Assembly: GCA_947589495.1 (NCBI GenBank)
Contig: CANQAK010000004.1
Span: forward strand, 1 to 62,344
Direction of reading: 5' to 3'
Source of the DNA: an uncultured Bacilli bacterium
GTDB lineage: Bacteria; Bacillota_I; Bacilli_A; RF39; UBA660
Length of the DNA: 62,344 nt
Within the stretch, counting starts at the first letter, position 1; every line of letters begins with the position of its first letter. Below the pieces are notes generated by a model, which searched no databases, was not told the DNA's origin, and worked only from the letters and a program-made list of their open reading frames with translations. The position numbers were made by a program, and so were the translations under genes. Positions 783 through 62,344 of this stretch are shown here, piece after piece.

Positions 783-3257
783 TTATAATTTAAAGTCTTT
801 AGTAAAATCTTCTAAAGATTCTTTTTTTGGAGTTTCTTCAATTACTTTCTTTTCTTCTTTTTTCATAATTTTTTGAATTTCATATTTTAAAGCAAATTCA
901 TTAATATAACCTTTTCCTATATTACTACCATTACTTTGTAAATCCATTATTGGTATTTCACTATTTTTTAATTCTGTAATTTCATTATCTTTTTTAATAA
1001 TAATTATATCTTTAGCATTAGTAACATAAGCATTAACAACTTCATAGTTAACTGTTTTATTTTTCTTAATTAATAAACTACCTCTTTTAGCTCTACTAGT
1101 AACTTGTAAATCATCCATTTTTATTCTTTTAGCAGTATTATTATTTGTAAAAACATTTAAATATTCATCTAGATTACTAAAAGAAGAACCATATATAACT
1201 ACATCATCTTTTAAATTAATACTTTTTACTCCACTTGTTTTTAAACCACTTAATGGTACTTCATCAATTTTATATCTTAAATAATAACAATTTTTAGTTA
1301 CTAATAAAATATCTTCTTGACTAATAGATACATTTACTAATTCATCATTTTCTTTTAATTTAATTGCAGTATAAGTTTTATTATATCTTGAAACAATTAA
1401 AGATTTTTCATCAATTTGTTTAATCATTCCATTTCTAGTAAATAAAGTTAAATTTTTATTTTCTTCTAAAACAAAACTTGCTATTATTTTTTCATTTTCT
1501 TGTAAATTAACAATATTATTAACATGTTTACCTAATTCTTTCCATTTTGCTTCAAAAATTTTATGAACAGGAATAAACAAATAATTACCTAAATTAGTAA
1601 ATAAAATTAAATTTTCTAATGTAGTAGTTTCAAAAATATTAGTTACATAATCTCCTGGTTTCAATAAAGTTTCACCATCTCTAGCTCCAAATGATTTAGA
1701 AGATACTCTTTTTATATAACCTTCATTTGTAACTACAACGTTAACATTTTCTTTAGGTATTATACTTTGTAAATTTATTTTTATTTCTGTTATTTCATCA
1801 ACTATTTCAGTTTTTCTTGGTGTAGCATATTCTTTTTTAATTATTTTAAGTTCTTTTTTCATTACATATTTTAATGCTTCTTCATCACTTAAAATAGCTT
1901 TTAAACCTTCAATTAATTTCTTTAAAGCTTCCATTTCTTCTTCAAGTGCTACTACATCAGTATTAGTTAAACGATATAATTGTAAATTTACTATAGCTTC
2001 TGCTTGTTCTAAAGTAAATTTAAATTTTTCTACTAAATTATTTTTAGCATCACTTTTATTTTTACTTGCTCTAATTACTTTAATAACTTCATCTAAAATA
2101 GATATACATTTAATAAGTCCTTCAACTATATGTAATCTTTTTTCTTTAACTTGTAAATCAAATTTACATCTTCTTGTAATTACTTCTTTTTGATGAGTAA
2201 TATAAGCATCAATAATTTCTAATATTCCAAGTGTTTTTGGAGCCCTATTAACAATGGCAACCATATTATAATTATAAGATATTTGTAAATCAGTATTTTT
2301 AAGTAAATAATTTAAAATCAGTTCACGATTAGCTCCACTTTTAAGATCAATAACAATTCTTAAACCTTCTCTATCTGATTCATCTCTTACTTCTGCAATA
2401 CCATCTATTTTCTTATCAATTCTAATAGCATCTATTTTATTAACTAATATAGCTTTGTTAACATCAAAAGGAATTTCAGAAATAATAATTTTTTCTTTTC
2501 CTTTTTCTTTGACAACTTTATATTTAGATTTAACAATAATTCGACCTTTACCAGTTTTAAAAGCTTCTCTTATACCATTTTTTCCTTCACATATAGCCCC
2601 AGTAGGGAAATCTGGACCTTTAACTATTTCTAAAATAGTATCTAAATGACAATTAGGAGAATCAATTCTTTTTATAGTAGCATCAATGATTTCCCCTAGA
2701 TTATGGGGAGGAATATTTGTAGCATATCCCGCACTTATTCCCATTGTTCCATTGACTAATAAATTAGGATATTTTGCTGGTAAAACAGTAGGTTCAAGTA
2801 ATCTATCATCAAAATTAGGAGCCCATTCTACAGTATCTTTATCTAAATCACATAGTAATTCATTACTAATTTTAGAAAGTCTTGCTTCAGTATAACGATA
2901 AGCTGCTGCTGGATCTCCATCCATTGAACCATTATTACCTTTCATGTCAATTAAAATAGCATTTTGTTTCCACCATTGACTCATTCTTACCATAGCATCA
3001 TATACTGAAGAATCTCCATGGGGATGATATTTACCTAAAACATCTCCAACAGTAGTAGCACTCTTTAAATAATTTTTATCATAAGTATTACCAGATTTCC
3101 ACATGGCAAATAAAATTCTTCTTTGAACAGGTTTAAGTCCATCTCTAACATCAGGAATAGCTCTATCTTGAATAATTTCCTTTGCATAGGAAGCAAAACT
3201 TTTTTCCATGATTTCTTCAAGAGCATAATCTTCAATTTTTTTTAATATTTCTTGCAT
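783..3257 (-). CDS. parC: DNA topoisomerase IV subunit A
   Basis: 824 aa. Type IIA topoisomerase A-subunit motifs are present: [37 protein letters not shown] and the catalytic [16 protein letters not shown] and MSQ.W are ParC-like rather than GyrA-like. It lies immediately downstream of the B subunit. Confidence 0.85.
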
Positions 3258-31190: not shown

Positions 31191-31276
31191 TCACGCTTCC
31201 TAATATTTAGGATACTCTATTTTTATATATTACAATCTTGTTTTGAATATTAAACTGAAGAAGTTTAATATTTTTT
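31191..31276. repeat. partial copy of the distal part of the ~0.5 kb inter-paralogue spacer
   Basis: cacgcttcctaatatt...tactctatttttatat(at)attacaat...tgaatattaaactgaagaagtttaatat is shared with 32978..33062 and, in its left part, with 34751..34798. Confidence 0.8.
31246..31272. other. AT-rich perfect hairpin 5 nt beyond the stop codon of paralogue 1
   Basis: aatattaaac-tgaagaa-gtttaatatt forms a 10-bp stem with a 7-nt loop. No U-run follows on the gene strand. Confidence 0.7.
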
Positions 31277-32533
31277 CTAACTTTTTATGTAGAATGGATC
31301 GGAACTTGTCCCTGCTCCCCCTAATTCTATATCAGACGTTAGATAGAAGACTGGGCGAATCGCATACGTATATTTCAAGGTGTTGTCGCTGATTCCGCCA
31401 AACTGATTCACAAACCACGCTTGGTAGAAAGGGTCCGAGCTACTCCATAGACCAATTCGCGACATGGTCCATTCATAGTCCGATGTTGTTCCCCCATTTT
31501 TTGAAATATGCATCCAGCCATTGTTTATACATTTTTGATATGTTTCTTGCCCTAAACGCATATGACAATTTGTTACGTTTGCTTGATAATAGTAATCATG
31601 TAAATATATTAATCCTATTGGTGCAGTATCACTCATTTGTTTCCATTTCTGATCTGTTATTAATTTATAATCTTTATCATAATATTGGGGTGCATCTTGT
31701 CCAGTCTCTATTCTATATGTTTGATCTGCACTTTCGATTAATGTTTCCTCATAATCATATCCTATATCTCCATACCACCATTCTTGTGGCTCTATTTTTC
31801 CTTTTATTTCTTCATTTAATGTACTTAAGAATGAATTACCATTTGTATTTAATTCTTTAAATAAGTCACTTTCTGGCCATTCGGGACAATCTCCTCCTTC
31901 ACAATAAACGTTAGTAGATGGGTCCACACTATATTTTGCATTCCATGCTTTTGTCCCTATGCTTTTTTGTTTCATCACTTTAATATTTCCTTCTGGAGTG
32001 ATTCCAATGATTCGATACATTTCATTAGATCCTGATGCACAATTTGCTTGTCCTATTTGCTTTAGGCATATATAGTTATTTACATTTGTTCCTTGATATC
32101 TATACATTCCTCCAACTAAATCTATACTCAATCCACTATCTGCTTGACTTTGTAGTGTTTGTAATGTTTGTGGTACTTTATCAAAATATAAATAACAATA
32201 TGATGTTTTATTTGTACTTACTGTTACTTTATTATTTTCCAAATCATATTCTAAACTGTTTTCTATTTTTTCTCCATTATTATCCATACATCCTGATTTT
32301 TCTTCATTTAACATATAACCTTCTCCTGGAAAACTTGATTCTTCTTTATACTGTCCATCTGTGCCTTTTACCATTATGGCAAACATACTATTTTTTTCTA
32401 CATCTACTACATCTTTTAACTTTACTTCATCTAATTGTGTTTGATATGCCGTATGTTTATGACATATTAAAAAGGTACTTACTGTTAGTATTACTCCTAT
32501 TACAAATATTACTGTAGTTTTTCTTTTCTCCAT
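31277..32533 (-). CDS. variable surface protein paralogue 1 (signal-anchored, C-terminal lectin-like domain with hypervariable segment)
   Basis: The track ORF starts at GTG 32545. The ATG at 32533 (MEKRKTT, GGTGA 8 nt upstream) matches the start of paralogue 2. Motifs shared with the other copies: GGMYRYQG, MYRIIGITPEGNIKVMKQ, CPEWPESD, WWYGD, GLIYLHDYYYQ, GWMHISKN, EWTMSR and RPVFYLTSDIELGGAG. Confidence 0.8.
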   Translation of the reverse strand: MEKRKTTVIFVIGVILTVSTFLICHKHTAYQTQLDEVKLKDVVDVEKNSMFAIMVKGTDGQYKEESSFPGEGYMLNEEKSGCMDNNGEKIENSLEYDLENNKVTVSTNKTSYCYLYFDKVPQTLQTLQSQADSGLSIDLVGGMYRYQGTNVNNYICLKQIGQANCASGSNEMYRIIGITPEGNIKVMKQKSIGTKAWNAKYSVDPSTNVYCEGGDCPEWPESDLFKELNTNGNSFLSTLNEEIKGKIEPQEWWYGDIGYDYEETLIESADQTYRIETGQDAPQYYDKDYKLITDQKWKQMSDTAPIGLIYLHDYYYQANVTNCHMRLGQETYQKCINNGWMHISKNGGTTSDYEWTMSRIGLWSSSDPFYQAWFVNQFGGISDNTLKYTYAIRPVFYLTSDIELGGAGTSSDPFYIKS

Positions 32534-32602
32534 TATATAATTCACCTTTTCTTTTTGTTAATAACTTACTATTATTTATTAACTCATCTATCCTATATGG
32601 TT

Positions 32603-32629
32603 ATTATATAATACCCCCCCCGGAGTCAA
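32603..32629 (-). promoter_or_regulatory. candidate sigma-A promoter of paralogue 1 with (G)8 in the spacer
   Basis: The minus strand reads TTGACT (32624..32629) - CC GGGGGGGG TATTA - TATAAT (32603..32608). The spacer is 15 nt. The homopolymer is at 32614..32621. Confidence 0.6.
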
Positions 32630-32834
32630 GTTTTAAAATTTATTTTGTTGTTAATTTTATGTTTTTTTTAAACATTCCATTTTTCTTGTGTCTTATTTTG
32701 ACTGGTTTTGTCGAAAGTATTTACAAATAAAAAATCCTATTATTTAATAGAGACTTATGGAAGTGTTGGTACTGACGTCACCTTTAAACTGATTTTCAGG
32801 GGGATTTATTTCTCAGGAAAGAGGTGAGACGGTT

Positions 32835-32939
32835 ATGAAAGCAAAAACTTTAAATAAGTTATTGTTATTAATAATAATAATTTTGTCCATTATTATTTTA
32901 ATAGACAAATTAAAAGACGTCGTCCTTATAGTAGGATAA
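32835..32939 (+). CDS. 34-aa hydrophobic peptide (candidate type I toxin-like small protein), copy A
   Basis: ATG with AGAGGTGA 7 nt upstream. The peptide is MKAKTLNKLLLLIIIILSIIILIDKLKDVVLIVG: a charged N-terminus, one TM helix and a charged tail. It is conserved at 34608..34712 with only hydrophobic substitutions. A candidate promoter TTGACT lies at 32698..32703. Confidence 0.5.
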   Translation: MKAKTLNKLLLLIIIILSIIILIDKLKDVVLIVG

Positions 32940-32987
32940 CGTCTATCTAAATATATAATTTAGGTGACGTGAAATATCACGCTTCCT
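32907..32987 (-). ncRNA. candidate antisense RNA overlapping the 3' end of small ORF A
   Basis: The minus strand carries a TTGTAA (33017..33022) - 17 nt - TATACT (32994..32999) promoter. Downstream are hairpin gcgtga-tat-ttcacgt, then hairpin 32915..32944 (agacgttatcc/ggacgacgtct) followed by UUUUAAUUU. It could alternatively be the 3' UTR and terminator of paralogue 2. Confidence 0.35.
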
Positions 32988-33033
32988 AATATTAGTATAC
33001 TCTATTTTTATATATATTACAATTCTTTTTTGA

Positions 33034-33058
33034 ATATTAAACTGAAGAAGTTTAATAT
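33034..33058. other. AT-rich perfect hairpin 5 nt beyond the stop codon of paralogue 2
   Basis: atattaaac-tgaagaa-gtttaatat forms a 9-bp stem with a 7-nt loop. It is the same element as 31246..31272. Confidence 0.7.
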
Positions 33059-33062
33059 CTTT

Positions 33063-34319
33063 CTAACTTGCTATGTAGAATGGTTCAGTTGTTGATCCTG
33101 CTCCTCCTAATTCTATATCGGATGTTAAATAGAATACTGGACGAACCGAATATTCATTTTTCAAGCTGTCCTTGCCGACACTGCCACTCGAAGTCACACG
33201 CCACGCATAGAAGTAAATACTTGAGCTTTCAGCTCGACCTATACGGGACATGGTCCATTCAGCTTGCTCGTTATCCGTAAATGAATTATCATTTTTTGAT
33301 ATGTGCATCCAACCGTTATCTTTACATTGTGTATGTGTATTGTTATCATAATGACAGATATTTGATGTTGATTGATAATAATAATCATGTAAATATATTA
33401 ATCCTATTTTTGCTTTGCTATTCATTTTTGCCCATTTTCCTGTTTCTATTGCTCCTTGTTTTAGTTTTGGATAATATTGACTGTCTACTTGACCTGTTTC
33501 TATTTGATATATTTCATCTGCTGTTTTATTTGCATAATCATAGTTTATATCACCATACCACCAATCCCAATCTTCTATTTTATTTTTTATATCACTAGAT
33601 AAATTACTTAAGAATGAATCACTATCTGCGTTTAATGTTTTATATATTTCACTATCTGGCCATTCTGGACAGCCACCATCATCACATTTGTATTTCTCTG
33701 TGGACGTTTTTTCATCATATTTTGTATTCCATACGAATGTATTTGTTCCATTATTTGTATATTTTGTTTGTTTCATTACTTTTATATTTCCTTCAGGAGT
33801 GATTCCTATGATTCGATACATTTCATCTGTTTTTTCTTTACAATTTGTATTATTTAAACTTCCTAAACAAATGTAATTATTTACATCTGCACCTTGGTAT
33901 CTATACATTCCTCCAACAGGATTTGTACTTAAACCACTGCCTTCTTTTCTTATATCGTCTACTGACAATTGTTTATCAAAATACAAATAACAATATGATG
34001 TTTGCCCTGTACTTACTATTACTTGTTGACTATCTTCATCATATGATAAACTATTTGGTATTAACTCGTTATTATTATCCATACACCCTGATTTATCTTT
34101 ATTTAGTTTGTAACCTTTTTCTGGAAAACTATCACTTGGTGCATATTCTCCATTTTCTTTTACCATTATTGCAAACATATTATTATCTTTTATATCTTTT
34201 AATTTTACTTCATCTAATTGTGTTGTTTGATATGCCGTATGTTTATGACATATTAAAAAGGTACTTACTATTAACATTACTCCTATTACAAATATTATTG
34301 TTGTTTTTCTTTTCTCCAT
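33063..34319 (-). CDS. variable surface protein paralogue 2
   Basis: 418 aa. It has the same architecture and motif islands as paralogue 1. The first ~40 aa are near-identical. Confidence 0.8.
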   Translation of the reverse strand: MEKRKTTIIFVIGVMLIVSTFLICHKHTAYQTTQLDEVKLKDIKDNNMFAIMVKENGEYAPSDSFPEKGYKLNKDKSGCMDNNNELIPNSLSYDEDSQQVIVSTGQTSYCYLYFDKQLSVDDIRKEGSGLSTNPVGGMYRYQGADVNNYICLGSLNNTNCKEKTDEMYRIIGITPEGNIKVMKQTKYTNNGTNTFVWNTKYDEKTSTEKYKCDDGGCPEWPDSEIYKTLNADSDSFLSNLSSDIKNKIEDWDWWYGDINYDYANKTADEIYQIETGQVDSQYYPKLKQGAIETGKWAKMNSKAKIGLIYLHDYYYQSTSNICHYDNNTHTQCKDNGWMHISKNDNSFTDNEQAEWTMSRIGRAESSSIYFYAWRVTSSGSVGKDSLKNEYSVRPVFYLTSDIELGGAGSTTEPFYIAS

Positions 34320-34391
34320 ATTATATAATTCACCTTTTCTTTTTTGTTAATAACTTACTATTATTTATTAACATCTCTATCTTATAAGGTT

Positions 34392-34419
34392 ATTATATAA
34401 TACCCCCCCCCGGAGTCAA
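34392..34419 (-). promoter_or_regulatory. candidate sigma-A promoter of paralogue 2 with (G)9 in the spacer
   Basis: The minus strand reads TTGACT (34414..34419) - CC GGGGGGGGG TATTA - TATAAT (34392..34397). The spacer is 16 nt. The homopolymer is at 34403..34411. Confidence 0.6.
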
Positions 34420-34607
34420 GTTTCAATTTTTATTTTGTTGTTAACTTTATGTTTTTCTTGTGTCTTATTTTGACTGGTTTTGTCGAAAGTATTTACAAAT
34501 AAAAAATTCTATTATTTAATAGAAACTTATGGAAGTGTTGGTACTGACGTCACCTTTAAACTGATTTTCAGGGGGATTTGGTTCTTCAGAAAAGAGGTGA
34601 GACGGTT

Positions 34608-34712
34608 ATGAAAGCAAAAACTTTAAATAAGTTCTTGTTATTAATTATATTAATTTTGTTACTATTTATTTTAGTAGACAAATTAAAAGACGTCGTCCTT
34701 ATAGTAGGATAA
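34608..34712 (+). CDS. 34-aa hydrophobic peptide (candidate type I toxin-like small protein), copy B
   Basis: The peptide is MKAKTLNKFLLLIILILLLFILVDKLKDVVLIVG. It has the same RBS (AGAGGTGA) and the same N- and C-terminal residues as copy A. A candidate promoter TTGACT lies at 34470..34475. Confidence 0.5.
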   Translation: MKAKTLNKFLLLIILILLLFILVDKLKDVVLIVG

Positions 34713-34760
34713 CGTCTATCTAAATAAATAATTTAGGTGGCGTGAAATATCACGCTTCCT
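34680..34760 (-). ncRNA. candidate antisense RNA overlapping the 3' end of small ORF B
   Basis: The minus strand carries TTGTAA (34790..34795) - 17 nt - TATACT (34767..34772). Terminator-like hairpin 34688..34717 is followed by a U-rich run. No large gene lies upstream on this strand, so here a read-through 3' UTR cannot explain it. Confidence 0.4.
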
Positions 34761-34828
34761 AATATTAGTATACTCTATTTTTATATATATTACAATATCT
34801 TGTTTTAGCATTTACATTTCAAAATTAT

Positions 34829-36342: not shown

Positions 36343-37152
36343 ATGGATTATATAACATGTATAATATTAGGACTTATTCAAGGAATAACTGAACCACTTC
36401 CTATTTCTTCAAGTGGACATGTATTTTTATTTAAAAATATGTTTAATACTACTATTTTTAATGATTCTTTTAATTTTGAAATTATTTCTAATTTTGGTTC
36501 ATTTTTAGCTATACTATTTATTTTTAGAAAAGAAATAATTACCCTTATTAAAAATTTCTTTTTATATATATTTAGTTCTAAAAAAAGAAAGAATAATAAA
36601 AATGGTTTTGTTTATATAATGAAACTTATTATAAGTACTATACCTGTAGGTATAACTGGTATACTATTTAATGATTATTTAGAAACTCATTTTAATTCAT
36701 TAAATATGTTAGCATTTACATTTTTATTTACAGCTTTAATGCTTTATTTAGTTAGAAATATTAAAGGTACTAAAAATAATGATGAAATTACTTTTAAAGA
36801 TGCTATAATAATTGGTTTATTTCAAGCAATTACAATTATACCTGGAATAAGTAGAAGTGGTACTACTTTAGTAGCATGTTTACTTTGTAAATTAAAAAGA
36901 GATGATGCTTTAAAATATACTTTTATGTTATATTTTCCAGTTAGTTTAGGAACTATGTTATTAAAAGTACCAGAATTAATTAATACCCCAAATAGTTTAT
37001 TAATGCCTTATTTAATAGGAATGTTAATTGCATTAATAGTAACATATTTATCATATTTATGGTTAAGTAATATTGTTAAAAAAGGTAAATTATGGAAATT
37101 TTCTATTTATTGTTTATGTTTAGCTTTATTTATCTTTATATATTTTAGATAG
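36343..37152 (+). CDS. uppP: undecaprenyl-diphosphate phosphatase
   Basis: 269 aa. BacA/UppP motifs are present: GLIQGITEPLPISSSGH and PGISRSGTT. Confidence 0.85.
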   Translation: MDYITCIILGLIQGITEPLPISSSGHVFLFKNMFNTTIFNDSFNFEIISNFGSFLAILFIFRKEIITLIKNFFLYIFSSKKRKNNKNGFVYIMKLIISTIPVGITGILFNDYLETHFNSLNMLAFTFLFTALMLYLVRNIKGTKNNDEITFKDAIIIGLFQAITIIPGISRSGTTLVACLLCKLKRDDALKYTFMLYFPVSLGTMLLKVPELINTPNSLLMPYLIGMLIALIVTYLSYLWLSNIVKKGKLWKFSIYCLCLALFIFIYFR

Positions 37153-37175
37153 AACTTTATGTTCTATTTTTTTTT
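37151..37175 (+). terminator. intrinsic terminator of uppP
   Basis: Hairpin agaac-tttat-gttct is followed by a T-run. Confidence 0.6.
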
Positions 37176-37185
37176 AATAAAAAAA

Positions 37186-37244
37186 GGGAGTTAGTTAGAC
37201 TCCCAGGGTTAAGTTAAGTCTATTTTAACGTCTTCGTTGACGAG
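37186..37244. repeat. structured ~60-nt 3' element, copy 1 (orphan)
   Basis: gggagTtagttagActccc agggttaagttaagtctattttaacgtcttcgttgacgag. Relative to copies 2 and 3, the first hairpin keeps its stem while the loop differs. Confidence 0.8.
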
Positions 37245-37378
37245 TAAATAAAAATTCATTTACTTATAGTATTTTATAATATTTATTATTATTTGTAAAT
37301 CCTAAATTTTTATACACTTATATTGTATCAATTTTATTGAATAATGTAAAATACTTTTAATAATATTTCATAAAAAAA

Positions 37379-37438
37379 GGGAGGTCGTTACTTCTCCCAG
37401 GGTTAAGTTAAATCTATTTTAACGTCTTCGTTGACGAG
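37379..37438. repeat. structured ~60-nt 3' element, copy 2 (directly downstream of paralogue 3)
   Basis: gggaggtcgttacttctccc agggttaagttaaatctattttaacgtcttcgttgacgag. On the minus strand, GGGAG..CTCCC followed by a U-run acts as a terminator for 37466..39598. Confidence 0.8.
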
Positions 37439-37465
37439 TTTTTTTTATTTTACTTATTTAGTATT

Positions 37466-39598
37466 TTATGAATTTGCTATGTAGAATGGTTCTGAGGTTG
37501 TACCTGCTCCTTCTAACGTTATATCAGAGGTTAGATAGAAGACTGGTCGTACATCATTCTTAGCCTCTAAGCCGTTTCCGTTGACACTGCCTTCCTGATT
37601 TACGATCCACGTATTAAACCAATCGTACGCTCTATCTCGACCAACACGAGTCATCGTCCATTCATAATTCGACGTTGTTTCTGCATTTTTACTCATATGC
37701 ATCCAACCATTATCTTTACATACTCCAGATTGGTTAGTTTTAGGATGACAATTATCTGATGTTGATTGATAATAATAATCATGTAAATACATTAATCCTA
37801 TTTTTGCTTTATTACTCATTTTTTGCCATCTTCCTGTTTCTACTTCACCAGTTACCCTTTTTGGATAATAATGGCTATCTAGTTGACCTGTTTCTATCTT
37901 CCAAATCTCTTTCGCTGATGTATTTGCATAATCAATATATATATCTCCATAATACCATTCCCAGTCTTCAATTTTATTCTGTATTCCACTAGTCAATTTA
38001 CTTAAAAACGAATCACTATTTCCGTTTAATGTTGTGTATATAGTACTTGCTGGCCATTCCGGGCATCCTCCACCTAGTCCACATGTTGAATCTTTATAGT
38101 TTGTATTCCATGCATATTTTCCTATACTTGTTTGTTTCATTACTTTTATATTTCCTGATGGTGTTACTCCTATAATTCTATACATATTATCATCGTAGCC
38201 ATTTTCTTTTGCACTAGTACATTCATTTGATCCTACTCCGCTCAAACATATAAAGTTGTTTACATTATTACCTTTTAATGTGTCTGTTCCTTGATATCTA
38301 TATATTCCTCCGACTAATGTCGAACTTAATGTTTTTGTTGTATCTTTACTTCTTAATGTGTTTTCTAAATCTGTTACTATTGTAAATGGTTCTTCTAATG
38401 TTCCTTTTCCTTCTACTTCTATATCATTTTTCAAATAGAAAACAGGGCGAACCACATACATATTGTTTAACTCATTCCCGCCAGCCACAACACCATTCGG
38501 GTTCACACTCCACGCACGGAAAATAGAACCAGTGGTACCACTCCGACCCTCACGCGACATAGTCCATTCTATATCAGATGATGTTCCTCCATTCTTTGAT
38601 ATATGCATCCATCCTTGACTTACACAATCTTCATAATTATTATTTTTTGTGCTATGACAACTCTCTTGGTTTGCTTGGTAATAATAATCATGTAAGTACA
38701 TTAATCCTATATTGGCTTTTTCTTCCATTTGAATCCATCTTTTGTCTGTTACTTCTTCTTTATTATTTGAATTATGTCCATAGTATTTTGTATCTTTTTG
38801 ACCTGTTTCTACTTGATATACTTCATTTGCTATTAGTGTTCCTACAAAATTAAAGTGCATATCACCATACCACCACTTTTGGGGTTCTATTTTATTTTGT
38901 ATATTTTTATCTAATGTATTATAAAATGTATTATTTAATGTTGTAAATATATCACTTTCTGGCCATTCTGGACAACTATCATCTCCACACTTTGAATCAT
39001 TAGAATTTTCGTTCCATCTATATTTACTTGTTCCACTATTTGTAAATTTTGTTTGCTTTATTATCTTTATATTTCCTTCTGGTGTTACTCCAATTATCCT
39101 GTACATATCATCACTTTGATTTAAACAATCACTTCCTAAACATATATAATTATTAACTTTATCATTTGTTCCTTGATATCTATACATTCCTCCGATTAAA
39201 ATTTTACTTAATGTATTTGTTGTGTCAACTTCTCTTAATTGTTTTACCATTTTAGATTCTTTGTCAAAATATAAATAACAATAGGATGTTTTATTTGAAA
39301 TAAGTGTTACTTTATTACTTTCTGAATCATATGTTAAACTGTTTTCAATTTTGACTCCATTATTATCCATACATCCTGATTTTTCTGTATTTAATACATA
39401 ACCTTTTTCAGGAAACGTCGATTGTTCAGTATATTCTCCACTATCATTTTGAAGCATTATCGCAAACATATTATTTTTTTCTACTTCTTTCAAACTTACT
39501 GTATCCAATGTTGCATTTGCCGATTTATTTTTGTTTATAAAAACTATACTTGTTGTTAATAATAATATTAATATAGAAATTATTCCAATTTTTTTCAT
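37466..39598 (-). CDS. variable surface protein paralogue 3 with two tandem C-terminal modules
   Basis: 710 aa: a signal anchor plus N-domain, then two complete copies of the GG(M/I)YRYQG...RPVFYL...EPF(T/Y)I module. The first ends near aa 410 at EPFTIVT. Each module has its own hypervariable segment. Confidence 0.8.
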   Translation of the reverse strand: MKKIGIISILILLLTTSIVFINKNKSANATLDTVSLKEVEKNNMFAIMLQNDSGEYTEQSTFPEKGYVLNTEKSGCMDNNGVKIENSLTYDSESNKVTLISNKTSYCYLYFDKESKMVKQLREVDTTNTLSKILIGGMYRYQGTNDKVNNYICLGSDCLNQSDDMYRIIGVTPEGNIKIIKQTKFTNSGTSKYRWNENSNDSKCGDDSCPEWPESDIFTTLNNTFYNTLDKNIQNKIEPQKWWYGDMHFNFVGTLIANEVYQVETGQKDTKYYGHNSNNKEEVTDKRWIQMEEKANIGLMYLHDYYYQANQESCHSTKNNNYEDCVSQGWMHISKNGGTSSDIEWTMSREGRSGTTGSIFRAWSVNPNGVVAGGNELNNMYVVRPVFYLKNDIEVEGKGTLEEPFTIVTDLENTLRSKDTTKTLSSTLVGGIYRYQGTDTLKGNNVNNFICLSGVGSNECTSAKENGYDDNMYRIIGVTPSGNIKVMKQTSIGKYAWNTNYKDSTCGLGGGCPEWPASTIYTTLNGNSDSFLSKLTSGIQNKIEDWEWYYGDIYIDYANTSAKEIWKIETGQLDSHYYPKRVTGEVETGRWQKMSNKAKIGLMYLHDYYYQSTSDNCHPKTNQSGVCKDNGWMHMSKNAETTSNYEWTMTRVGRDRAYDWFNTWIVNQEGSVNGNGLEAKNDVRPVFYLTSDITLEGAGTTSEPFYIANS

Positions 39599-39654
39599 GC
39601 AACTTCTCCTTACATCAAATTTGTTTATCGTATTATGTTACGAGTTTCAACATA

Positions 39655-39683
39655 ATTATAATCGTAAAATGCTACGATGTCAA
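39655..39683 (-). promoter_or_regulatory. consensus sigma-A promoter of paralogue 3
   Basis: The minus strand reads TTGACA (39678..39683) - 17 nt - TATAAT (39655..39660). An AAGGAG RBS precedes the ATG at 39598. There is no homopolymer. Confidence 0.65.
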
Positions 39684-39700
39684 TAAGGAGTTTAAAAAAT

Positions 39701-39919
39701 ATGAAAATAGATGTTAAAAAGTATAAAACAAATGAAATATTTAAGTTTATAAGACAAGCTACTAATTTGACTCAAGAAGAATTAGCTAAAAAAGTTAATA
39801 TTAGTAAAAGTTCTATTGAGAAATATGAATATGGTACTGTTAATTATACATTTGAAACGCTTGTTAAAATAGCTAAAGCTTGTGATTTAGATATATTTAT
39901 AGTAAGTAAAAAGAAATAG
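39701..39919 (+). CDS. XRE-family helix-turn-helix transcriptional regulator
   Basis: The HTH_3 pattern is FIRQATNLTQEELAKKVNISKSSIEKYEYG. The track start is 39677. The ATG at 39701 with AAGGAG 10 nt upstream is preferred. Confidence 0.7.
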   Translation: MKIDVKKYKTNEIFKFIRQATNLTQEELAKKVNISKSSIEKYEYGTVNYTFETLVKIAKACDLDIFIVSKKK

Positions 39920-39933
39920 GTTACTATTTCTTT

Positions 39934-41160
39934 TTACTTACATATAGCTAGATAATATTTCTTTTTACCTTTTTTAATTAAATATACTTTATTATCTATA
40001 GCATTTTCTTTTTTAACTAAATATGTTGGATCATTTATTTTTTTATTATTTAAACTAATTGCATTACCCCCTACAAGTTCTCTTGCTTCTCTTTTACTAG
40101 AACATATTTTACTATTTACAAGTAAATCTTCTAAAAGACAATCTTCTTCTAAATCAATATGTTCCATGTCTTTAAAATTATTTAAGATATCATTAGCAGA
40201 TAATTTAGTTATATCTTCACTAAATAAAGCTTTACTCATTATTTTAGCTTTATTAAATTCTTCTTCTCCATGTAAGAAAGTAATTATTTCTTTAGCAAGT
40301 ATTTCTTGAGCCATTCTTTTTTCTGGTTCTTTTTTATGTTCTTCTTCTATTTTATCAATTTCTTCTTTAGATAAAAATGTTAACATCTTTAAATATTTAA
40401 TAACTATTTTATCACTAGTATTAATTAAATATTGGTATAATTCATAACTAGATGTTTTATTTTTATCAAGCCATAAGGCATTGCCTTCAGTTTTACCAAA
40501 TTTAACTCCATTAGCATCAAGAACAAGTGGCATAGTCATACCATATAATTCAACATCTTCTTTTTTACGTGCTAATTCTATACCAGTTGTAATATTACCC
40601 CATTGATCTGATCCTGCAACTTGAAGAGTAACACCCTTATCTTTATATAGTTGGACAAAGTCCATACCTTGTAAAATAGTATAAGCAAACTCACAAAAAG
40701 TAATACCTGATTCTAATCTTCTATTAATAATATCTTTATCTAACATATAATTAACATTAATATATTTACCATAATCTCTTAAAAAATCTAAAACTGATAA
40801 ATTTTTAGTCCAGTCATAATTATTTACAACTTCAAAACCAAATATTTCTTTTGCTTGACGAGTCAATCCTTCAACATTTTTTTGTACAAGTTCTTTAGAA
40901 ATCATTTGTCTTTCATTAGATGGTTTAGGATCTCCGATTAACCCTGTTGCTCCCCCAATTAATAAAATAGGTTTATGACCGTACTTAGCAAGCCTAGAAG
41001 CAATTAAAAATGATGAAAAATGACCAATATGCATTGAATCTGCAGTGGGATCAGTTCCAATATAAAAAGTTAATTTCTCTTCATTTAATTTCTTTTCTAA
41101 AAGAGGACTACTAATATCTTTAATAAGTCCACGCCATTTTAAATCTTCAAAACAATTCAT
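39934..41160 (-). CDS. tyrS: tyrosine--tRNA ligase
   Basis: 408 aa. It has the HIGH motif (MHIGH), the KMSKS-type motif KFGKTEG and a C-terminal S4-like domain. A T-box leader with UAC triplets lies upstream. Confidence 0.9.
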   Translation of the reverse strand: MNCFEDLKWRGLIKDISSPLLEKKLNEEKLTFYIGTDPTADSMHIGHFSSFLIASRLAKYGHKPILLIGGATGLIGDPKPSNERQMISKELVQKNVEGLTRQAKEIFGFEVVNNYDWTKNLSVLDFLRDYGKYINVNYMLDKDIINRRLESGITFCEFAYTILQGMDFVQLYKDKGVTLQVAGSDQWGNITTGIELARKKEDVELYGMTMPLVLDANGVKFGKTEGNALWLDKNKTSSYELYQYLINTSDKIVIKYLKMLTFLSKEEIDKIEEEHKKEPEKRMAQEILAKEIITFLHGEEEFNKAKIMSKALFSEDITKLSANDILNNFKDMEHIDLEEDCLLEDLLVNSKICSSKREARELVGGNAISLNNKKINDPTYLVKKENAIDNKVYLIKKGKKKYYLAICK

Positions 41161-41164
41161 AAAA

Positions 41165-41395
41165 AATCTCTCCTTTAAAATAAAAATTCATAAATTAAGA
41201 TTTAAGGACGAATTAATATCCGCGGTACCACCTTAATTTATGAATTAAACATACACTTTATTCTTGTAACGTAAGAAAACGATTTAGCTCCAGAGTCGTA
41301 AATTCCATCAGCACTAACAATTAAATTATACAATTATTTTCTTTAAATAGCAAATTATATTAATTTATTCCATCTAAACAATTATCATAAATCCA
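41165..41395 (-). promoter_or_regulatory. T-box leader (tRNA-Tyr responsive) upstream of tyrS
   Basis: The minus strand carries the T-box sequence ttaaGGTGGTACCGCG at 41221..41236. A 15-bp perfect terminator helix (41185..41199 with 41232..41246) is followed by a U-run. UAC triplets occur in the candidate specifier region around 41262..41275. Confidence 0.8.
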
Positions 41396-41398
41396 TTT

Positions 41399-42121
41399 TT
41401 ACATTTCAATATCAACATTATGATAAATTTCTGTTACATCATCAATAATATCTAACATATTATAAAGTTTTTTAAATGTTTCAGCATCTTCACCATCTAA
41501 AGTAATTTTTTCTTTAGGAAACATTCCTACTTGATCTATTTCATATTCTACATTAGGAATAAATTTTTCTACTACATCTTTAACTTTATCATGATCATTT
41601 GGTTTCATAGTAATAGTTACTTCATCATTTTCTACTTCATAATCAATTATTTCTATACCTTCATTTAAAAGATTTTCAAATAACTCATCACTTTTATCAC
41701 ACTTAAATGTTAAAACTCCAATATAATCATAATTATATGAAACAGAATTAGTTACTCCTAAACTTTTACCTACTTTATTAAAAGCAGCCCTTACTTCTCC
41801 AACAGTTCTATTAACATTATCTGTTAAACATTTAATTATTAAGGTAGATGCTCCAGGACCAAATCCTTCATAAACAACTTCTTGATAGTCTTCATTAGAT
41901 CCACCTTTAGCTTTTTCAATAGCTCTATTAATAATATCATTAGGTACTTGTTGTTTTTTAGCTTTTTCTACTATTCTTTTTAAAACAATATTAGAATCTA
42001 TTTCAGGTACCCCTTTTTTAGCAGCTAAATAAATTTCTTTAGCAAACGTAGTATAAATTTTTCCTCTAGCTGCTCCCGTTTTTTGTATACTATACTTTCT
42101 TACTTCATATGCTCTTCCCAT
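41399..42121 (-). CDS. YebC/PmpR-family transcriptional regulator (YeeN-like)
   Basis: 240 aa. The N-terminal pattern is MGRAYEVRK...IYTTFAKEIYLAAKKG...NRAIEKAKG. Confidence 0.8.
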   Translation of the reverse strand: MGRAYEVRKYSIQKTGAARGKIYTTFAKEIYLAAKKGVPEIDSNIVLKRIVEKAKKQQVPNDIINRAIEKAKGGSNEDYQEVVYEGFGPGASTLIIKCLTDNVNRTVGEVRAAFNKVGKSLGVTNSVSYNYDYIGVLTFKCDKSDELFENLLNEGIEIIDYEVENDEVTITMKPNDHDKVKDVVEKFIPNVEYEIDQVGMFPKEKITLDGEDAETFKKLYNMLDIIDDVTEIYHNVDIEM

Positions 42122-42130
42122 AAATTCCTC

Positions 42131-43180
42131 CTATAAAAATTTTAAATTTCTTATAAAATCATAAACAAAATGTTTATTTTTAGTATATTTTTTAACATAT
42201 TTTATTTCATCCATAATTTTATAAATTTTAAAATAAGTAAAATTCTCTTTAATCATAACATATTCTAAAGCTTTTATAATAACATCTTTATTATTTTCTG
42301 CTCTAAAATATTTTTTTACTTTAGTGATTAAATCAACATTTACTTTCCTCGCTAAAGTATTATACCAAAACATTGAGTGTTTTTTAAAGATAAAATTATA
42401 TCCATCATAATTTTTTAATAATTTTAATGTATCATAATATCCTAATTTAATATTTTCATTTATTTTACTTTTATTAACATTTAAAGTACTTCCTAAAAAT
42501 CTTGAAGGAGTAATTTTAATTACTCTATCTTGATATTCTTTTTTTACTTTTTGACTTTTACCAATCCCTTGTATTTCTACTGAATATATTTTATCATAAC
42601 CTTTTTCTATTAACATATTTATAGGGTTATTATCATAAAATCCTCCATCAATATAATATTTATTATCAATAAATTTTTCCATTTTAAAAATTGGTAAATT
42701 ACAACTTGCTAATATATATTCTGGTATATGCCCTTTTTTCATATCTTTTTTAAACAAATAAAGGGGTTTTAAATCATTAACTCTTACAGTTACGAGTCCA
42801 TAATCCATTTTACTTTTTCTTATTTTTTCTTCATCAATCATTTCTTTTAAAATATTTTTTAAATTTTTATTATCAATTCCTTTATTTTGAATAATTAAAG
42901 TCATTTGTTCAATTCCATAAATTAATTCTTTAAATTTATCTTCATTATTAACACTTTCTGTATATTTAGTATTAAAATTTAATAATTCTCCAATATCAAC
43001 ATTTTTCCAAAAATTATATAATTCTTGTTCCATACCACTGACAATTAAAGCAGCATTAAAAGACCCAATTGAAGTACCTACTACTCCATCAATATTTATT
43101 CCACATTTTTTAAAGGCTAAATAAGCCCCTACTTGATAAGAACCTTTAGTTCCTCCGCCAGCTAACACAAGTCCTGTCAT
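42131..43180 (-). CDS. patatin-like phospholipase
   Basis: It has GGGTKGSYQVG (oxyanion hole), GTSIGS (GxSxG) and the DGG motif. Confidence 0.75.
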   Translation of the reverse strand: MTGLVLAGGGTKGSYQVGAYLAFKKCGINIDGVVGTSIGSFNAALIVSGMEQELYNFWKNVDIGELLNFNTKYTESVNNEDKFKELIYGIEQMTLIIQNKGIDNKNLKNILKEMIDEEKIRKSKMDYGLVTVRVNDLKPLYLFKKDMKKGHIPEYILASCNLPIFKMEKFIDNKYYIDGGFYDNNPINMLIEKGYDKIYSVEIQGIGKSQKVKKEYQDRVIKITPSRFLGSTLNVNKSKINENIKLGYYDTLKLLKNYDGYNFIFKKHSMFWYNTLARKVNVDLITKVKKYFRAENNKDVIIKALEYVMIKENFTYFKIYKIMDEIKYVKKYTKNKHFVYDFIRNLKFL

Positions 43181-43183
43181 AAA

Positions 43184-44116: not shown

Positions 44117-44133
44117 AAATTTTCACCCAACAC

Positions 44134-51039: not shown

Positions 51040-51116
51040 AGCCCGTTGGTGAAGTGGCTTAACACACTGCGTTCTCAGCGCAGCATTCACGGGTTCGAAC
51101 CCCGTACGGGTTACCA
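51040..51116 (+). tRNA. tRNA-Glu (anticodon CUC), CCA encoded
   Basis: A hand-folded cloverleaf fits. The acceptor stem is agcccgt/acgggtt with one G-U pair. The anticodon stem is ctgcg/cgcag with loop ttCTCag. The T arm is acggg-ttcgaac-cccgt. The sequence is close to my memory of Bacillus tRNA-Glu. Confidence 0.8.
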
Positions 51117-61741: not shown

Positions 61742-62305
61742 TTATGAAACTATGTAGAATGGATCATCTATCGTTCCTGAACCTTTTAATCCTATATTTT
61801 TCTTCAAGTAAAATACCGGGCGAATTGCCAACTTAGCGTTCTGATTGGAGGTGAAGAGATCGCCACTAGAAGATACAACCCATGAATAGTATTTATCACT
61901 GTTACTATTCATTGGGCCTGTCCGCGTCATCATCCATTCACTCTCTGAACCTCCATTTTTTGTTATATGCATCCAACTTCCTTTACATGTTATTTCATAA
62001 TCTGTTCTACAACTTGTATTATGTCCTTCTTTGCTTCCTGAATATGCATAATCATGTATATACATTAATGCTATCTTTGATTGTTTACCTTTCGTCCATG
62101 TTTCGTTTGTAATTAATTCTCCACTTGCATTATAATATTGTGTTGTTGTTTTCCCTGTTTCTATCTTATATGCTTCTTCTGTGGTTATATTTTCATTTTG
62201 TACTAAATTCCACCCTACATCCCCATAAATATAATTCCATTCTTCTATTTTTCTTTGTATTCCACTATTGTTAATGGTACTATAAAAATGTAAGAAAAAG
62301 TCCAA
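61742..62305 (-). CDS. 5'-truncated member of the variable surface protein family (C-terminal module only; possible pseudogene or silent cassette)
   Basis: 187 aa counted from a TTG. An in-frame stop lies at 62324..62326 just upstream. Homology starts at the ...IQRKIEEWNYIYGD motif, so the signal anchor, N-domain and first half of the module are missing. The window ends at 62344, so upstream context is unseen. Confidence 0.55.
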   Translation of the reverse strand: MDFFLHFYSTINNSGIQRKIEEWNYIYGDVGWNLVQNENITTEEAYKIETGKTTTQYYNASGELITNETWTKGKQSKIALMYIHDYAYSGSKEGHNTSCRTDYEITCKGSWMHITKNGGSESEWMMTRTGPMNSNSDKYYSWVVSSSGDLFTSNQNAKLAIRPVFYLKKNIGLKGSGTIDDPFYIVS

Positions 62306-62344
62306 ATAAAACTGTAGGATTTCCTACATAATTAAAAGGACTTA

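What the first reader, a model, noticed from the sequence alone, without database searches (positions are those of the whole stretch)
31277..31480. Hypervariable, G+C-rich, adenine-poor segment at the 3' end of every copy of the surface-protein module (copy 1)
Between the invariant EWTMSR and RPVFYL motifs, all five modules carry ~32-34 codons that are almost unalignable at the protein level:
- LWSSSDPFYQAWFVNQFGGISDNTLKYTYAI
- RAESSSIYFYAWRVTSSGSVGKDSLKNEYSV
- EGRSGTTGSIFRAWSVNPNGVVAGGNELNNMYVV
- VGRDRAYDWFNTWIVNQEGSVNGNGLEAKNDV
- TGPMNSNSDKYYSWVVSSSGDLFTSNQNAKLAI

The same stretch is compositionally foreign. My hand count is about 45% G+C for 31321..31480 and about 51% for 38441..38570. A parC sample (1021..1080) gives about 20%. 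In 38441..38570 the coding strand has only about 19% A. Synonymous choices shift too: Arg is mostly CGN (one AGA in the copy-3b segment), whereas the parC codons I checked use AGA. Ser TCG and Ala GCG also appear, so amino-acid content alone does not explain the shift.

Three hypotheses fit some of this:
(a) The segments are targets of a diversity-generating retroelement acting in trans. Adenine-specific mutagenesis depletes A, and scaffold residues use A-poor codons. However, no RT or template repeat is in the window, and the copies differ at too many positions to share one template.
(b) Frequent gene conversion between cassettes with GC-biased repair.
(c) A targeted hypermutation process not yet described.

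Some variable codons show NNC or NTC patterns across copies (agc/ggc/aac/ttc; atc/gtc/gtc/ctc). This is weakly reminiscent of AAC-templated diversification.
Basis: partly seen in the sequence, partly recalled or inferred. Interest (0 to 1): 0.8.

Follow-up and report, generated by a model that had tools for sequence, protein, structure and literature searches.

The report
DGR variable regions in surface proteins
The G+C-rich, adenine-poor stretches are most likely the variable regions of a diversity-generating retroelement, a known reverse-transcriptase system that rewrites the binding tip of surface proteins; its enzyme and templates are not on this contig.

Summary
The five segments are the five highest G+C peaks of this 24.5% G+C window, apart from one tRNA. 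GC3 is 0.48 in the segments, 0.16 in the rest of the same genes and 0.08 in other genes. A3 is 0.15 against 0.51.

They lie where relatives of this protein family carry proven DGR variable regions (VRs). In related uncultured-Bacilli MAGs the family genes sit beside a cassette of template repeats (TRs), a MutS_I-like ORF, bAvd and a reverse transcriptase. There, VR and TR differ almost only where the TR has adenine (for example 90 matches, 18 A-mismatches, 0 others). In three samples of one relative, all 36 real differences in 5.8 kb fall inside the VR.

TRs are built from AAT/AAC codons and carry almost no third-position A (0.04). That explains the composition.

The window holds no RT or TR. 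A metagenome that contains a 7.2-kb stretch identical to the window also holds an RT+TR contig. Window copies 1, 2 and 5 differ from that TR preferentially at its adenines, but not exclusively. Their own templates were not recovered.

Verdict: DGR variable regions served in trans by several templates. This is a new member of a known kind.

The parts
31351..31462 (-). Variable region (VR) of copy 1. It runs from the Ser codon of EWTMSR to the first base of the Val codon of RPVFYL. 112 nt, G+C 0.49, A 0.24.
   Evidence: Boundaries were set by analogy with the VR/TR homology limits in relatives (TCGCG... to ...CGCCCAG). Against the partial TR of L083 there are 15 mismatches at 30 TR adenines and 9 at 55 other positions (p=0.0013).
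31277..32545 (-). Copy 1 gene. It encodes a membrane-anchored surface protein: N-terminal TM helix, a beta-sandwich, then a DUF6273/C-type-lectin-like domain that carries the VR. The likely start is the ATG at 32533.
   Evidence: ORF list. AlphaFold model with pLDDT 85. Foldseek hits to a DUF6273-bearing IgA peptidase, to the Lcl C-terminal domain and to C-type lectin domains. 433 homologues.
33137..33248 (-). VR of copy 2. 112 nt, G+C 0.48.
   Evidence: Against the L083 TR there are 13 mismatches at 30 TR adenines and 8 at 55 other positions (p=0.004). The core GCGTGGCGTGTGACTTCG matches the TR core with 3 mismatches.
33063..34319 (-). Copy 2 gene, a tandem duplicate of copy 1 with a period of about 1786 nt.
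38443..38557 (-). VR of copy 3a, the first module of the two-module gene. 115 nt, G+C 0.53, A 0.17.
   Evidence: It has one extra codon relative to the main TR class, so it needs a template of different length.
37543..37651 (-). VR of copy 3b, the second module. 109 nt, G+C 0.47.
37466..39598 (-). Two-module gene (710 aa) carrying VRs 3a and 3b.
   Evidence: An identical copy is present in ENA assemblies ERZ27249221 and ERZ27249211.
61816..61927 (-). VR of copy 5. 112 nt, G+C 0.46.
   Evidence: (18 of 30 against 16 of 55, p=0.0055).
61742..62305 (-). Copy 5: the 3' part of a family gene at the contig end. The frame is interrupted by stops upstream.
31340..31357 (-). RPVFYL-coding boundary of copy 1. 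CGCCCAG is the last stretch shared with TRs. The next bases, TCTTCTATCT, differ from the TR continuation CCCACTATAA. This resembles an IMH versus IMH* arrangement.
   Evidence: VR/TR alignments in relatives break exactly after CGCCCAG. The same nucleotides are present in the window copies.

Best explanation
The five segments are variable regions (VRs) of a diversity-generating retroelement.

Proposed mechanism:
1. Elsewhere in the genome, short self-contained template units are transcribed. Each has a promoter, a 5' element TAGGTARTCTT, an AAT/AAC-rich template repeat (TR), a spacer whose AAGATTATCTA can pair with the 5' element, and a terminator.
2. A DGR-type reverse transcriptase, with a bAvd-like partner, copies the TR into cDNA and misreads adenines.
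3. The cDNA replaces the homologous stretch of a target gene, between ...TCGCG and CGCCCAG.

The TRs carry adenine almost only at first and second positions of AAY codons. All other positions use G, C or T. The written VR is therefore A-poor and G+C-rich, and it is hypervariable at the AAY-derived codons. Scaffold residues stay fixed.

The VR forms the surface strands and loops of a DUF6273/C-type-lectin-like domain on a membrane-anchored protein. The result is a variable ligand-binding tip.

The window copies differ in length and at non-adenine positions, so they must be served by several different TRs.

Shown here: the composition, homology to proven VRs, the mechanism in relatives, and adenine-biased mismatches to a TR from the same metagenome.
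Inferred: that this RT/TR belongs to the window's genome, that each window VR has its own template, and that writing is recent or ongoing.
For: (1) RT genes near family genes in relatives. A search with the BPP-1 reverse transcriptase found RT genes next to family genes in three related MAG loci. These are RVT_1 proteins with an adjacent bAvd-like ORF.

(2) TR/VR pairs with adenine-specific mismatches (matches / mismatches at TR adenines / other mismatches):
- L104: 90/18/0
- L019: 87/14/0
- L046: 95/13/4
- L085 against L083: 69/12/1
- In trans, between contigs of one MAG: L017 VR against L097 TR 94/12/2; L088 VR against L091 TR 94/14/3; L068 VR against L046 TR 94/11/7

(3) Activity in nature. 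Three samples carry the same RT protein and are identical over 5.8 kb. The exceptions are 36 differences, all within 8131-8207 (the VR), plus 3 differing columns at the very start of the alignment, which I take to be edge artefacts.

(4) Several TRs per genome. There are two in L019 and an array of four in L046. In the goat MAG, TRs lie on four different contigs.

(5) TR composition explains the anomaly. TRs are 0.437 G+C. A at codon positions 1/2/3 is 0.43/0.41/0.04. AAT (167) and AAC (51) are the commonest codons. Window VRs have A3 0.15 and GC3 0.48.

(6) Link to the window.
- ENA sample ERZ27249221 holds a contig 100% identical to window 36934-44160.
- The same sample holds an RT+TR contig (L083), the target matching that TR (L085), and a further contig carrying a two-module family gene (L001).
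- Window VRs c1, c2 and c5 differ from that TR preferentially at its adenines: 15/30 against 9/55, 13/30 against 8/55, and 18/30 against 16/55.
- Against a consensus of 18 sequences taken as TRs (one, from L075, is evidently a chance motif match), four window VRs mismatch at 50 of 96 TR-A sites and 35 of 152 conserved non-A sites (p=4.6e-6).

(7) Fold and literature. The fold is C-type-lectin/DUF6273-like. Published work places the VRs of DGR targets at the C-terminus of DUF6273 in Faecalibacterium prophage proteins (PMC11792537), and describes further DUF6273-bearing DGR targets with a C-type-lectin-like fold (PMC10743442).
Against: - No RT and no TR unit are in the window.
- No recovered TR matches any window VR cleanly. 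The best have 8-9 non-adenine mismatches in 85 nt. c3a and c3b show no significant adenine bias against the L083 TR (p about 0.15).
- Window copies differ from each other at third codon positions as much as at first and second positions. They therefore do not share one template.
- The two other assemblies that cover copy 3 have identical VRs. No variation of the window's own VRs has been seen. These assemblies come from the same project, so they are not independent.
- Linking L083 to the window's genome rests only on co-occurrence in one sample, similar coverage and matching cluster contig lengths. It is not physical linkage.
Confidence: 0.85

Rival explanations
1. Relic VRs. The segments were written by a DGR in the past but are no longer targeted, because templates were lost or diverged. 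What is seen is a fossil signature now drifting.
For: There are 8-18 non-adenine mismatches to the nearest TR. Third-position divergence between copies is high. c3 VRs are identical in two other assemblies, one of which differs from the window by 5 SNPs elsewhere. Some family members in other MAGs have VR-position segments at background G+C, for example L002 0.28 and L067 0.23. This shows that decay does occur in the family.
Against: In a genome with GC3 of 0.08-0.16, an unwritten segment should lose its GC3 of 0.48 and regain third-position A. All five still carry the full signature. The boundary sequences TCGCG and CGCCCAG needed for homing are intact in most copies. An RT+TR contig is present in the same sample.
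Confidence: 0.25
2. Frequent gene conversion among the paralogous cassettes, with GC-biased repair, raises G+C and shuffles the segment.
For: There are many paralogues per genome. Copies 1 and 2 are a tandem duplication.
Against: - No shared identical tracts exist between window VRs. Copies 1 and 2 are 67% identical in the VR, with no long identical runs.
- The flanks that would mediate conversion are not G+C-enriched.
- The bias is specifically against adenine on the coding strand, not against A+T. T stays at 0.25-0.33.
- The mechanism does not predict the adenine-specific TR/VR mismatches seen in relatives.
Confidence: 0.04
3. Selection alone. The binding site favours Gly, Ser, Tyr, Trp and Arg, and amino-acid content produces the G+C rise.
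For: The segment is enriched in G, S, Y, W and R.
Against: Synonymous sites shift as strongly as the rest. Four-fold-site G+C is 47% against 13% in the rest of the same genes (p=3e-12), and A falls from 74% to 20%.
Confidence: 0.02
4. A targeted hypermutation process not yet described, unrelated to DGRs.
For: None specific. It is only the absence of RT and TR from this contig.
Against: Every feature is accounted for by the DGR cassettes found beside homologous genes.
Confidence: 0.02

Closest known systems
Bordetella phage BPP-1 DGR (brt, bAvd, TR, mtd VR)
   Same: A DGR-type RT detectable with Brt (E about 1e-27). A bAvd-like accessory protein. Adenine-specific TR-to-VR differences. The VR lies in a C-type-lectin-like fold near the C-terminus. 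Homology ends at a G+C-rich boundary, after which the VR and TR continuations diverge (IMH-like).
   Different: - The system appears cellular rather than phage-borne. There was no hit in IMG/VR.
- There are several TR units per genome.
- There are many paralogous targets, most of them remote.
- About 27 codons follow the VR.
- The cassette has an extra MutS_I-like ORF.
Treponema denticola TvpA-type DGR with remote targets (PMC4891356; PMC5758913)
   Same: One cellular DGR serves several paralogous surface-protein genes, some of them away from the cassette.
   Different: In the published surveys, remote targets were assigned by matching the cassette's TR. Here the targets differ in length and at non-adenine sites, and need several TRs.
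DUF6273-domain DGR targets of gut phages (Tentaclins, PMC10743442; Faecalibacterium prophages, PMC11792537)
   Same: The same domain type. DUF6273 resembles a C-type lectin. In the Faecalibacterium prophage targets the VR maps to the C-terminal part of the domain (PMC11792537).
   Different: Those are phage receptor-binding or decoration proteins. Here the proteins are membrane-anchored and chromosomal, in a large paralogous family. The Pfam match is below threshold.
Multi-TR DGRs (Stenotrophomonas sp. [quoted passage not shown]
   Same: More than one TR per element.
   Different: Here there are up to four TRs in tandem. Further TR units lie on other contigs of the same MAG, each with its own promoter-like and terminator-like elements.

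Membership tests
Diversity-generating retroelement (target VR) | A DGR-clade reverse transcriptase encoded in the same genome | tested here: inconclusive
   None is in the window. One is present beside family genes in related MAGs. One is on contig L083 from sample ERZ27249221, which also holds 7.2 kb identical to the window. Genome linkage is inferred.
Diversity-generating retroelement (target VR) | A template repeat that differs from the VR essentially only at TR adenines | tested here: inconclusive
   Met in relatives: 90/18/0, 87/14/0 and 69/12/1. For window VRs there is only adenine-biased mismatch to non-cognate TRs: c1 15/30 against 9/55; c2 13/30 against 8/55; pooled p=4.6e-6. Cognate TRs were not recovered.
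Diversity-generating retroelement (target VR) | Template adenines concentrated in AAY codons, with scaffold and third positions free of adenine | tested here: met
   In TRs of the family, A is 0.43/0.41/0.04 at codon positions 1/2/3, with AAT and AAC dominant. Window VRs have A3 0.15 against 0.51 in the rest of the genes.
Diversity-generating retroelement (target VR) | VR located in a ligand-binding C-type-lectin-like fold near the C-terminus of the target protein | tested here: met
   AlphaFold model with pLDDT 85; VR residues lie in strands at about 358-402 with block means of 92-97. Foldseek hits: 9qa6, a DUF6273-bearing protein, at E=1.2e-5; the Lcl C-terminal domain and C-type lectin domains at weak E-values.
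Diversity-generating retroelement (target VR) | An accessory variability determinant (Avd) in the cassette | tested here: met
   Shown in relatives only. The bAvd (PF22296) match is below Pfam's cut-off in the direct scan (27.2 bits against 40). The precomputed annotation lists it unmarked for two loci and as weak for three others.
Diversity-generating retroelement (target VR) | Between-strain differences confined to the VR | tested here: inconclusive
   Met in a relative: all 36 real differences in 5.8 kb lie within the VR. Not seen for the window's copy 3, which is identical in two assemblies from the same project. Copies 1, 2 and 5 have no second assembly.
Diversity-generating retroelement (target VR) | cDNA synthesis and mutagenic retrohoming demonstrated | not testable with these tools
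   Requires experiment.
Pfam DUF6273 (PF19789) | Match to the family HMM above the gathering score | tested here: not met
   Only copy 3 matches, at 14.2 bits against a 23.5 cut-off (E=0.041). Four listed homologues (P0002, P0005, P0007, P0106) carry a precomputed PF19789 hit. The family is best called DUF6273-like on the basis of fold.

The most novel reading that the evidence does not exclude
These small-genome gut Bacilli may run a distributed, multi-template DGR network.
- Self-contained TR units, each with its own promoter-like and terminator-like elements, are scattered over the chromosome.
- One RT serves them all.
- Several TRs of different length may compete for the same VR ('template switching'). 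That would add combinatorial diversity on top of adenine mutagenesis across dozens of paralogous surface lectins.
- Some of these genes also sit behind homopolymer-G promoters that could switch expression by slippage.

Together this would be a layered surface-variation system.
Probability: 0.35. Interest if true: 0.6.

Novelty: new member of a known kind. Interest (0 to 1): 0.35.

Why it matters
It explains a striking compositional anomaly with a known mechanism. It also shows that local G+C, A3 and GC3 profiles alone can flag DGR targets in very A+T-rich genomes, even when the RT and templates lie on other contigs. That is common in fragmented MAGs, and cassette-based DGR finders miss such remote targets.

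It marks a large family of membrane-anchored lectin-like proteins as the programmable surface of an uncultured, host-associated Bacilli lineage.

The multi-template arrangement, if confirmed, would widen the known sequence space a single DGR can reach.

Tried and rejected
- **TR scan of the window.** I scanned for a TR with an 'identical or TR=A' score. Only A-rich tracts scored. The TR 3' motif, the TR core and the spacer motif are absent from the window.
- **RT search in the window.** A YxDD regex and a Brt phmmer search found none.
- **Rfam on the window.** Only the tRNA matched.
- **First related-loci run, with the single protein.** It found nothing. The alignment-based run worked.
- **Hunt for cognate TRs.** I looked up RT homologues P0127, P0140, P0132, P0133 and P0139. 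This yielded more cassettes but no template matching a window VR.
- **Degenerate '[VR base or A]' pattern on genome contigs.** It matched only poly-A runs, so the scan was wasted.
- **TR motif in other collections.** There were no hits in viral contigs or metagenome contigs.
- **Codon-position test for a single shared template.** It failed: positions 1, 2 and 3 differ equally. I therefore dropped the one-TR model.
- **P0009 look-up.** It is not on record. NCBI contigs of the closest relatives were not retrievable. I take this to mean that the source MAG is withheld from the index. That is an inference.
Full report

Yes. The window is 24.5% G+C, and 130-nt windows have sd 0.060. The stretches between the EW(T/M)M(S/T)R and RPVFYL motifs of the five family modules reach 0.46-0.51. 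Together with tRNA-Glu (51040-51116) they are the six highest peaks in 62 kb.

- G+C is 0.450 for 31321-31480, 0.508 for 38441-38570 and 0.20 for 1021-1080.
- Coding-strand A is 0.192 in 38441-38570.

The shift is not due to amino-acid content.

| Measure | VR segments | Rest of family genes | 17 other genes |
|---|---|---|---|
| GC3 | 0.48 | 0.16 | 0.08 |
| A3 | 0.15 | 0.51 | 0.43 |
| A at four-fold sites | 20% | 74% | 40% |

The four-fold-site A difference between the segments and the rest of the same genes has p=3e-22. Arg is CGN in 15 of 16 codons inside the segments. It is AGA/AGG in 18 of 21 in the rest of the genes.

The stretch is also the least conserved 30-residue window of the protein. 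Mean pairwise identity is 0.26 among the window copies and 0.24 among 36 family members.

- A scaffold (G, xW-V, G, mostly L) is kept, so 'unalignable' is too strong.
- The flanking motif is not invariant across copies.
- The fifth copy is a 3' fragment at the contig end.

**2. What are the genes?**

Each module encodes an N-terminal transmembrane helix, a beta-sandwich and a C-terminal mixed alpha/beta domain.

An AlphaFold model of copy 1 (36-sequence alignment, pLDDT 85, pTM 0.78) places the variable stretch in well-predicted strands at about residues 358-402.

Foldseek against the PDB gives:
- the Thomasclavelia ramosa IgA peptidase as best hit (9qa6, E=1.2e-5); its N-terminal domain is annotated DUF6273 (PMC12402451);
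- then the Legionella Lcl C-terminal domain;
- then a long run of C-type lectin domains at weak E-values.

Pfam gives only a sub-threshold DUF6273 match. DUF6273 is described as C-type-lectin-like and as a DGR target domain. In Faecalibacterium prophage targets the variable region maps to its C-terminal part (PMC10743442, PMC11792537).

The family has 433 detectable homologues. Those that carry a name, and the genome loci, come from uncultured Bacilli MAGs of animal guts. Many paralogues occur per genome; one rabbit MAG gave more than 20 loci.

The G+C-rich, A-poor signature at this position is family-wide but variable. Mean segment A is 0.25 against 0.42 in the upstream 600 nt. Segment G+C ranges from 0.23 to 0.57.

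**3. The mechanism, shown in relatives**

I searched the fetched loci with the BPP-1 reverse transcriptase. This found RT genes 1.3-3.5 kb downstream of family genes in three MAGs. They are RVT_1 proteins. Each is preceded by a bAvd-like ORF and a small MutS_I-like ORF.

Between the target gene and these ORFs lie template repeats. Their differences from the neighbouring VR fall almost entirely at TR adenines. The table gives matches / mismatches at TR adenines / other mismatches.

| VR | TR | Relation | Result |
|---|---|---|---|
| L104 | L104 | cis | 90/18/0 |
| L019 | L019 | cis | 87/14/0 |
| L046 | L046 | cis | 95/13/4 |
| L085 | L083 | separate contigs, one sample | 69/12/1 |
| L017 | L097 | different contigs, same MAG | 94/12/2 |
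| L088 | L091 | different contigs, same MAG | 94/14/3 |
| L068 | L046 | different contigs, same MAG | 94/11/7 |

The system is active in nature. Three metagenome assemblies encode the identical RT protein and are identical over 5.8 kb. The exceptions are 36 differences, all within the VR (8131-8207), plus 3 differing columns at the very start of the alignment, which I take to be edge artefacts.

**4. Why the composition is odd**

Twenty TRs of this class average 0.437 G+C in genomes of about 25% G+C. Their adenines sit at codon positions 1 and 2 (0.43 and 0.41) and almost never at position 3 (0.04). AAT (167) and AAC (51) are by far the commonest codons. Scaffold codons are GCG, TGG, GTG, TCG, GGY, GTC, TTG, ACG and CGC.

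A VR copied from such a template inherits A-free third positions. In the cis pairs, roughly half of the template's first- and second-position adenines are changed.

**5.

These genomes carry several TRs. There are two in L019 and a tandem array of four in L046. In the goat MAG, TRs lie on four different contigs. One of them (L028) lies about 500 nt upstream of a family gene, on a contig region where the Brt search of the fetched loci found no RT.

TRs differ in length in their 5' half and at non-adenine positions.

Each TR unit looks like an independent transcription unit:
- a TATAAT box;
- a 5' element TAGGTARTCTT;
- the TR;
- CGCCCAG followed by CCCACTATAACTT...GATARTATGG...GGGAAGATAG;
- AAGATTATCTA, which is complementary to the 5' element;
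- a terminator-like hairpin.

So paralogous VRs need not share a template, and neither RT nor TR need be near a target. Within the window, third positions differ between copies as much as first and second positions do. That rules out one shared TR and fits several.

**6. Link to this window**

The window has no RT and no TR unit.

ENA assembly ERZ27249221 contains a contig 100% identical to window 36934-44160, including both VRs of copy 3. The same assembly holds:
- contig L083, with a partial TR, the MutS_I-like ORF, the ORF at the bAvd position and RT P0134;
- L085, whose VR matches that TR at 69/12/1;
- L001, a contig carrying a two-module family gene (P0002).

Coverage of these contigs is similar, 2.2-4.2x.

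The table gives mismatches of window VRs against the L083 TR.

| Copy | At 30 TR adenines | At 55 other positions | p |
|---|---|---|---|
| c1 | 15 | 9 | 0.0013 |
| c2 | 13 | 8 | 0.004 |
| c5 | 18 | 16 | 0.0055 |
| c3b | 14 | 18 | 0.15 |
| c3a | 20 | 29 | 0.16 |

Copy 3a has one extra codon, so the ungapped comparison is a poor test for it.

I also compared four window VRs with a consensus of 18 sequences taken as TRs. One of these, from L075, is evidently a chance motif match. Mismatches fall at 50 of 96 TR-adenine columns and at 35 of 152 conserved non-adenine columns (p=4.6e-6).

The homing boundaries seen in relatives (TCGCG... and ...CGCCCAG) are present in the window copies, with minor variants.

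I conclude that the window VRs were written from TRs of this class. The cognate TRs were not recovered, and I think they lie in the unseen part of the TR array or elsewhere in the genome.

**7. What remains uncertain**

- No variation of the window's own VRs has been observed. Two assemblies covering copy 3 are identical. One of them differs from the window by five clustered SNPs elsewhere. They come from one project, so this is weak evidence.
- The 8-18 non-adenine mismatches to the nearest TR could mean other templates or post-writing drift.
- The undiminished GC3 of 0.48, in a genome that drives third positions to 0.08-0.16, argues for recent writing. Family members with background G+C at this position show what decay looks like.
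- I put 0.85 on 'DGR-written VRs' and about 0.6 on 'still being rewritten'.

**8. Rivals**

- GC-biased gene conversion does not predict a bias specifically against coding-strand adenine. It does not predict unshifted flanks, the absence of shared tracts, or the TR/VR pattern in relatives.
- Amino-acid selection alone is refuted by the four-fold-site statistics.
- A new hypermutation process is unnecessary.

**9. Comparison with known systems, and novelty**

This is a DGR in the BPP-1 sense: an RT detectable with Brt, a bAvd-like partner, adenine-specific TR-to-VR transfer and a C-type-lectin-like target. The following features are also already described:
- remote targets, as in Treponema denticola (PMC4891356, PMC5758913);
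- a DUF6273-type target domain, as in gut phages (PMC10743442, PMC11792537);
- more than one TR, as in Stenotrophomonas sp. SKA14 and in 53 DGRs of a recent survey (PMC6642488, PMC11661182).

The element appears cellular. There is no match in IMG/VR, and the cassette sits among housekeeping genes.

The finding is therefore a new member of a known kind.

The less ordinary features were seen in relatives, not in the window:
- tandem and dispersed self-contained TR units;
- dozens of paralogous targets;
- a conserved MutS_I-like ORF in the cassette;
- one locus whose VR differs in length between samples and resembles different TR types, which suggests template switching.

No paper in the searched library links DGRs to RF39.

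**10. Verdict**

Interest is modest (0.35), because the mechanism is known. The value lies in showing that composition alone can reveal remote DGR targets in an A+T-rich MAG, and in the multi-template architecture that deserves follow-up.

Noticed in passing
window 32614-32621 and 34403-34411 (minus-strand promoters of copies 1 and 2): A near-consensus promoter has a homopolymer G tract in its spacer: TTGACT-CC-G8-TATTA-TATAAT upstream of copy 1, and the same with G9 upstream of copy 2. The spacers are 15 and 16 nt. These are the only G or C runs of 7 nt or more in the 62-kb window. This is a candidate slipped-strand phase-variation switch for the DGR target genes. Copy 3 has an ordinary TTGACA/TATAAT-type promoter without a tract.
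   Followed up: partly
window 31277-34319, 37466-39598 against other genes: Outside the VR, the family genes strongly prefer A-ending codons (74% A at four-fold sites). Seventeen other genes on the same contig prefer T-ending codons (54% T, 40% A). The family therefore has a distinct codon usage even apart from the VR.
   Followed up: no
window 31215-34800: Copies 1 and 2 form a tandem duplication with a period of about 1786 nt. Its intergenic and 5' parts are 81-93% identical. That is more conserved than the coding body, which is 60-78% identical.
   Followed up: no
window 31247-31272 and 33033-33058: A conserved A+T-rich hairpin (ATATTAAACT-GAAGA-AGTTTAATAT) lies just after the stop codons of copies 1 and 2, about 80 nt downstream of the VR. 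It could be a terminator or a target-site structure.
   Followed up: no
L104 about 640-760 (NCBI GCA_964634865.1): The VR of this relative carries an in-frame TAG exactly where its TR has AAG. The mutagenesis appears to have produced a stop codon in the assembled variant.
   Followed up: no
L019 4573-4959; L098 9288-9677; L101 525-899; L104 1301-1687: A small ORF (124-140 aa) with a weak MutS domain I match lies between the TRs and bAvd in the cassettes examined. An ORF of 89-102 aa follows the RT. Neither is part of the canonical DGR set.
   Followed up: no
L098/L099/L100 8100-8220: The same target gene in three samples carries VRs of different length (612 against 611 aa). Each resembles a different TR type and none matches the adjacent TR cleanly. 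This suggests that several TRs can write into one VR.
   Followed up: partly
L019 3209-4355; L046 8930-10100; L086-L097: TR units come with their own TATAAT box, complementary 5' and 3' elements and a terminator-like hairpin. They occur in tandem arrays of up to four. In the goat MAG they lie on four different contigs; in L028 one sits about 500 nt upstream of a family gene, in a region where the Brt search found no RT.
   Followed up: partly
L019 3581-4114: An ORF with a CdiA C-terminal toxin domain match (E=2.4e-15) sits between the two TRs of the goat-MAG cassette.
   Followed up: no
window 43808-43832: Assembly ERZ27249211 (L108) is identical to the window over 6.3 kb except for five substitutions clustered within 25 nt, at 43808, 43811, 43820, 43823 and 43832. 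They lie in the ORF at 43184-44116, whose product carries epimerase/dehydratase-type Pfam matches. This may be a short recombination tract.
   Followed up: no
window 44930-47863 and 55306-56559: Two long minus-strand ORFs (977 and 417 aa) have no Pfam match. They show raised G+C (0.30-0.33), and 55801-56400 has a very strong negative AT skew. They may be further surface proteins.
   Followed up: no
window 61742-62344: Copy 5 lies at the contig end and has stop codons upstream of the conserved domain. It is either a truncated pseudogene or an assembly break inside a repeated gene.
   Followed up: no
L099 11641-19778: In one sample, an element of about 8 kb is inserted directly downstream of the DGR cassette. 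It carries a Tn916-Xis-like gene and a phage-integrase-family gene. The insertion is absent in the other two samples.
   Followed up: no
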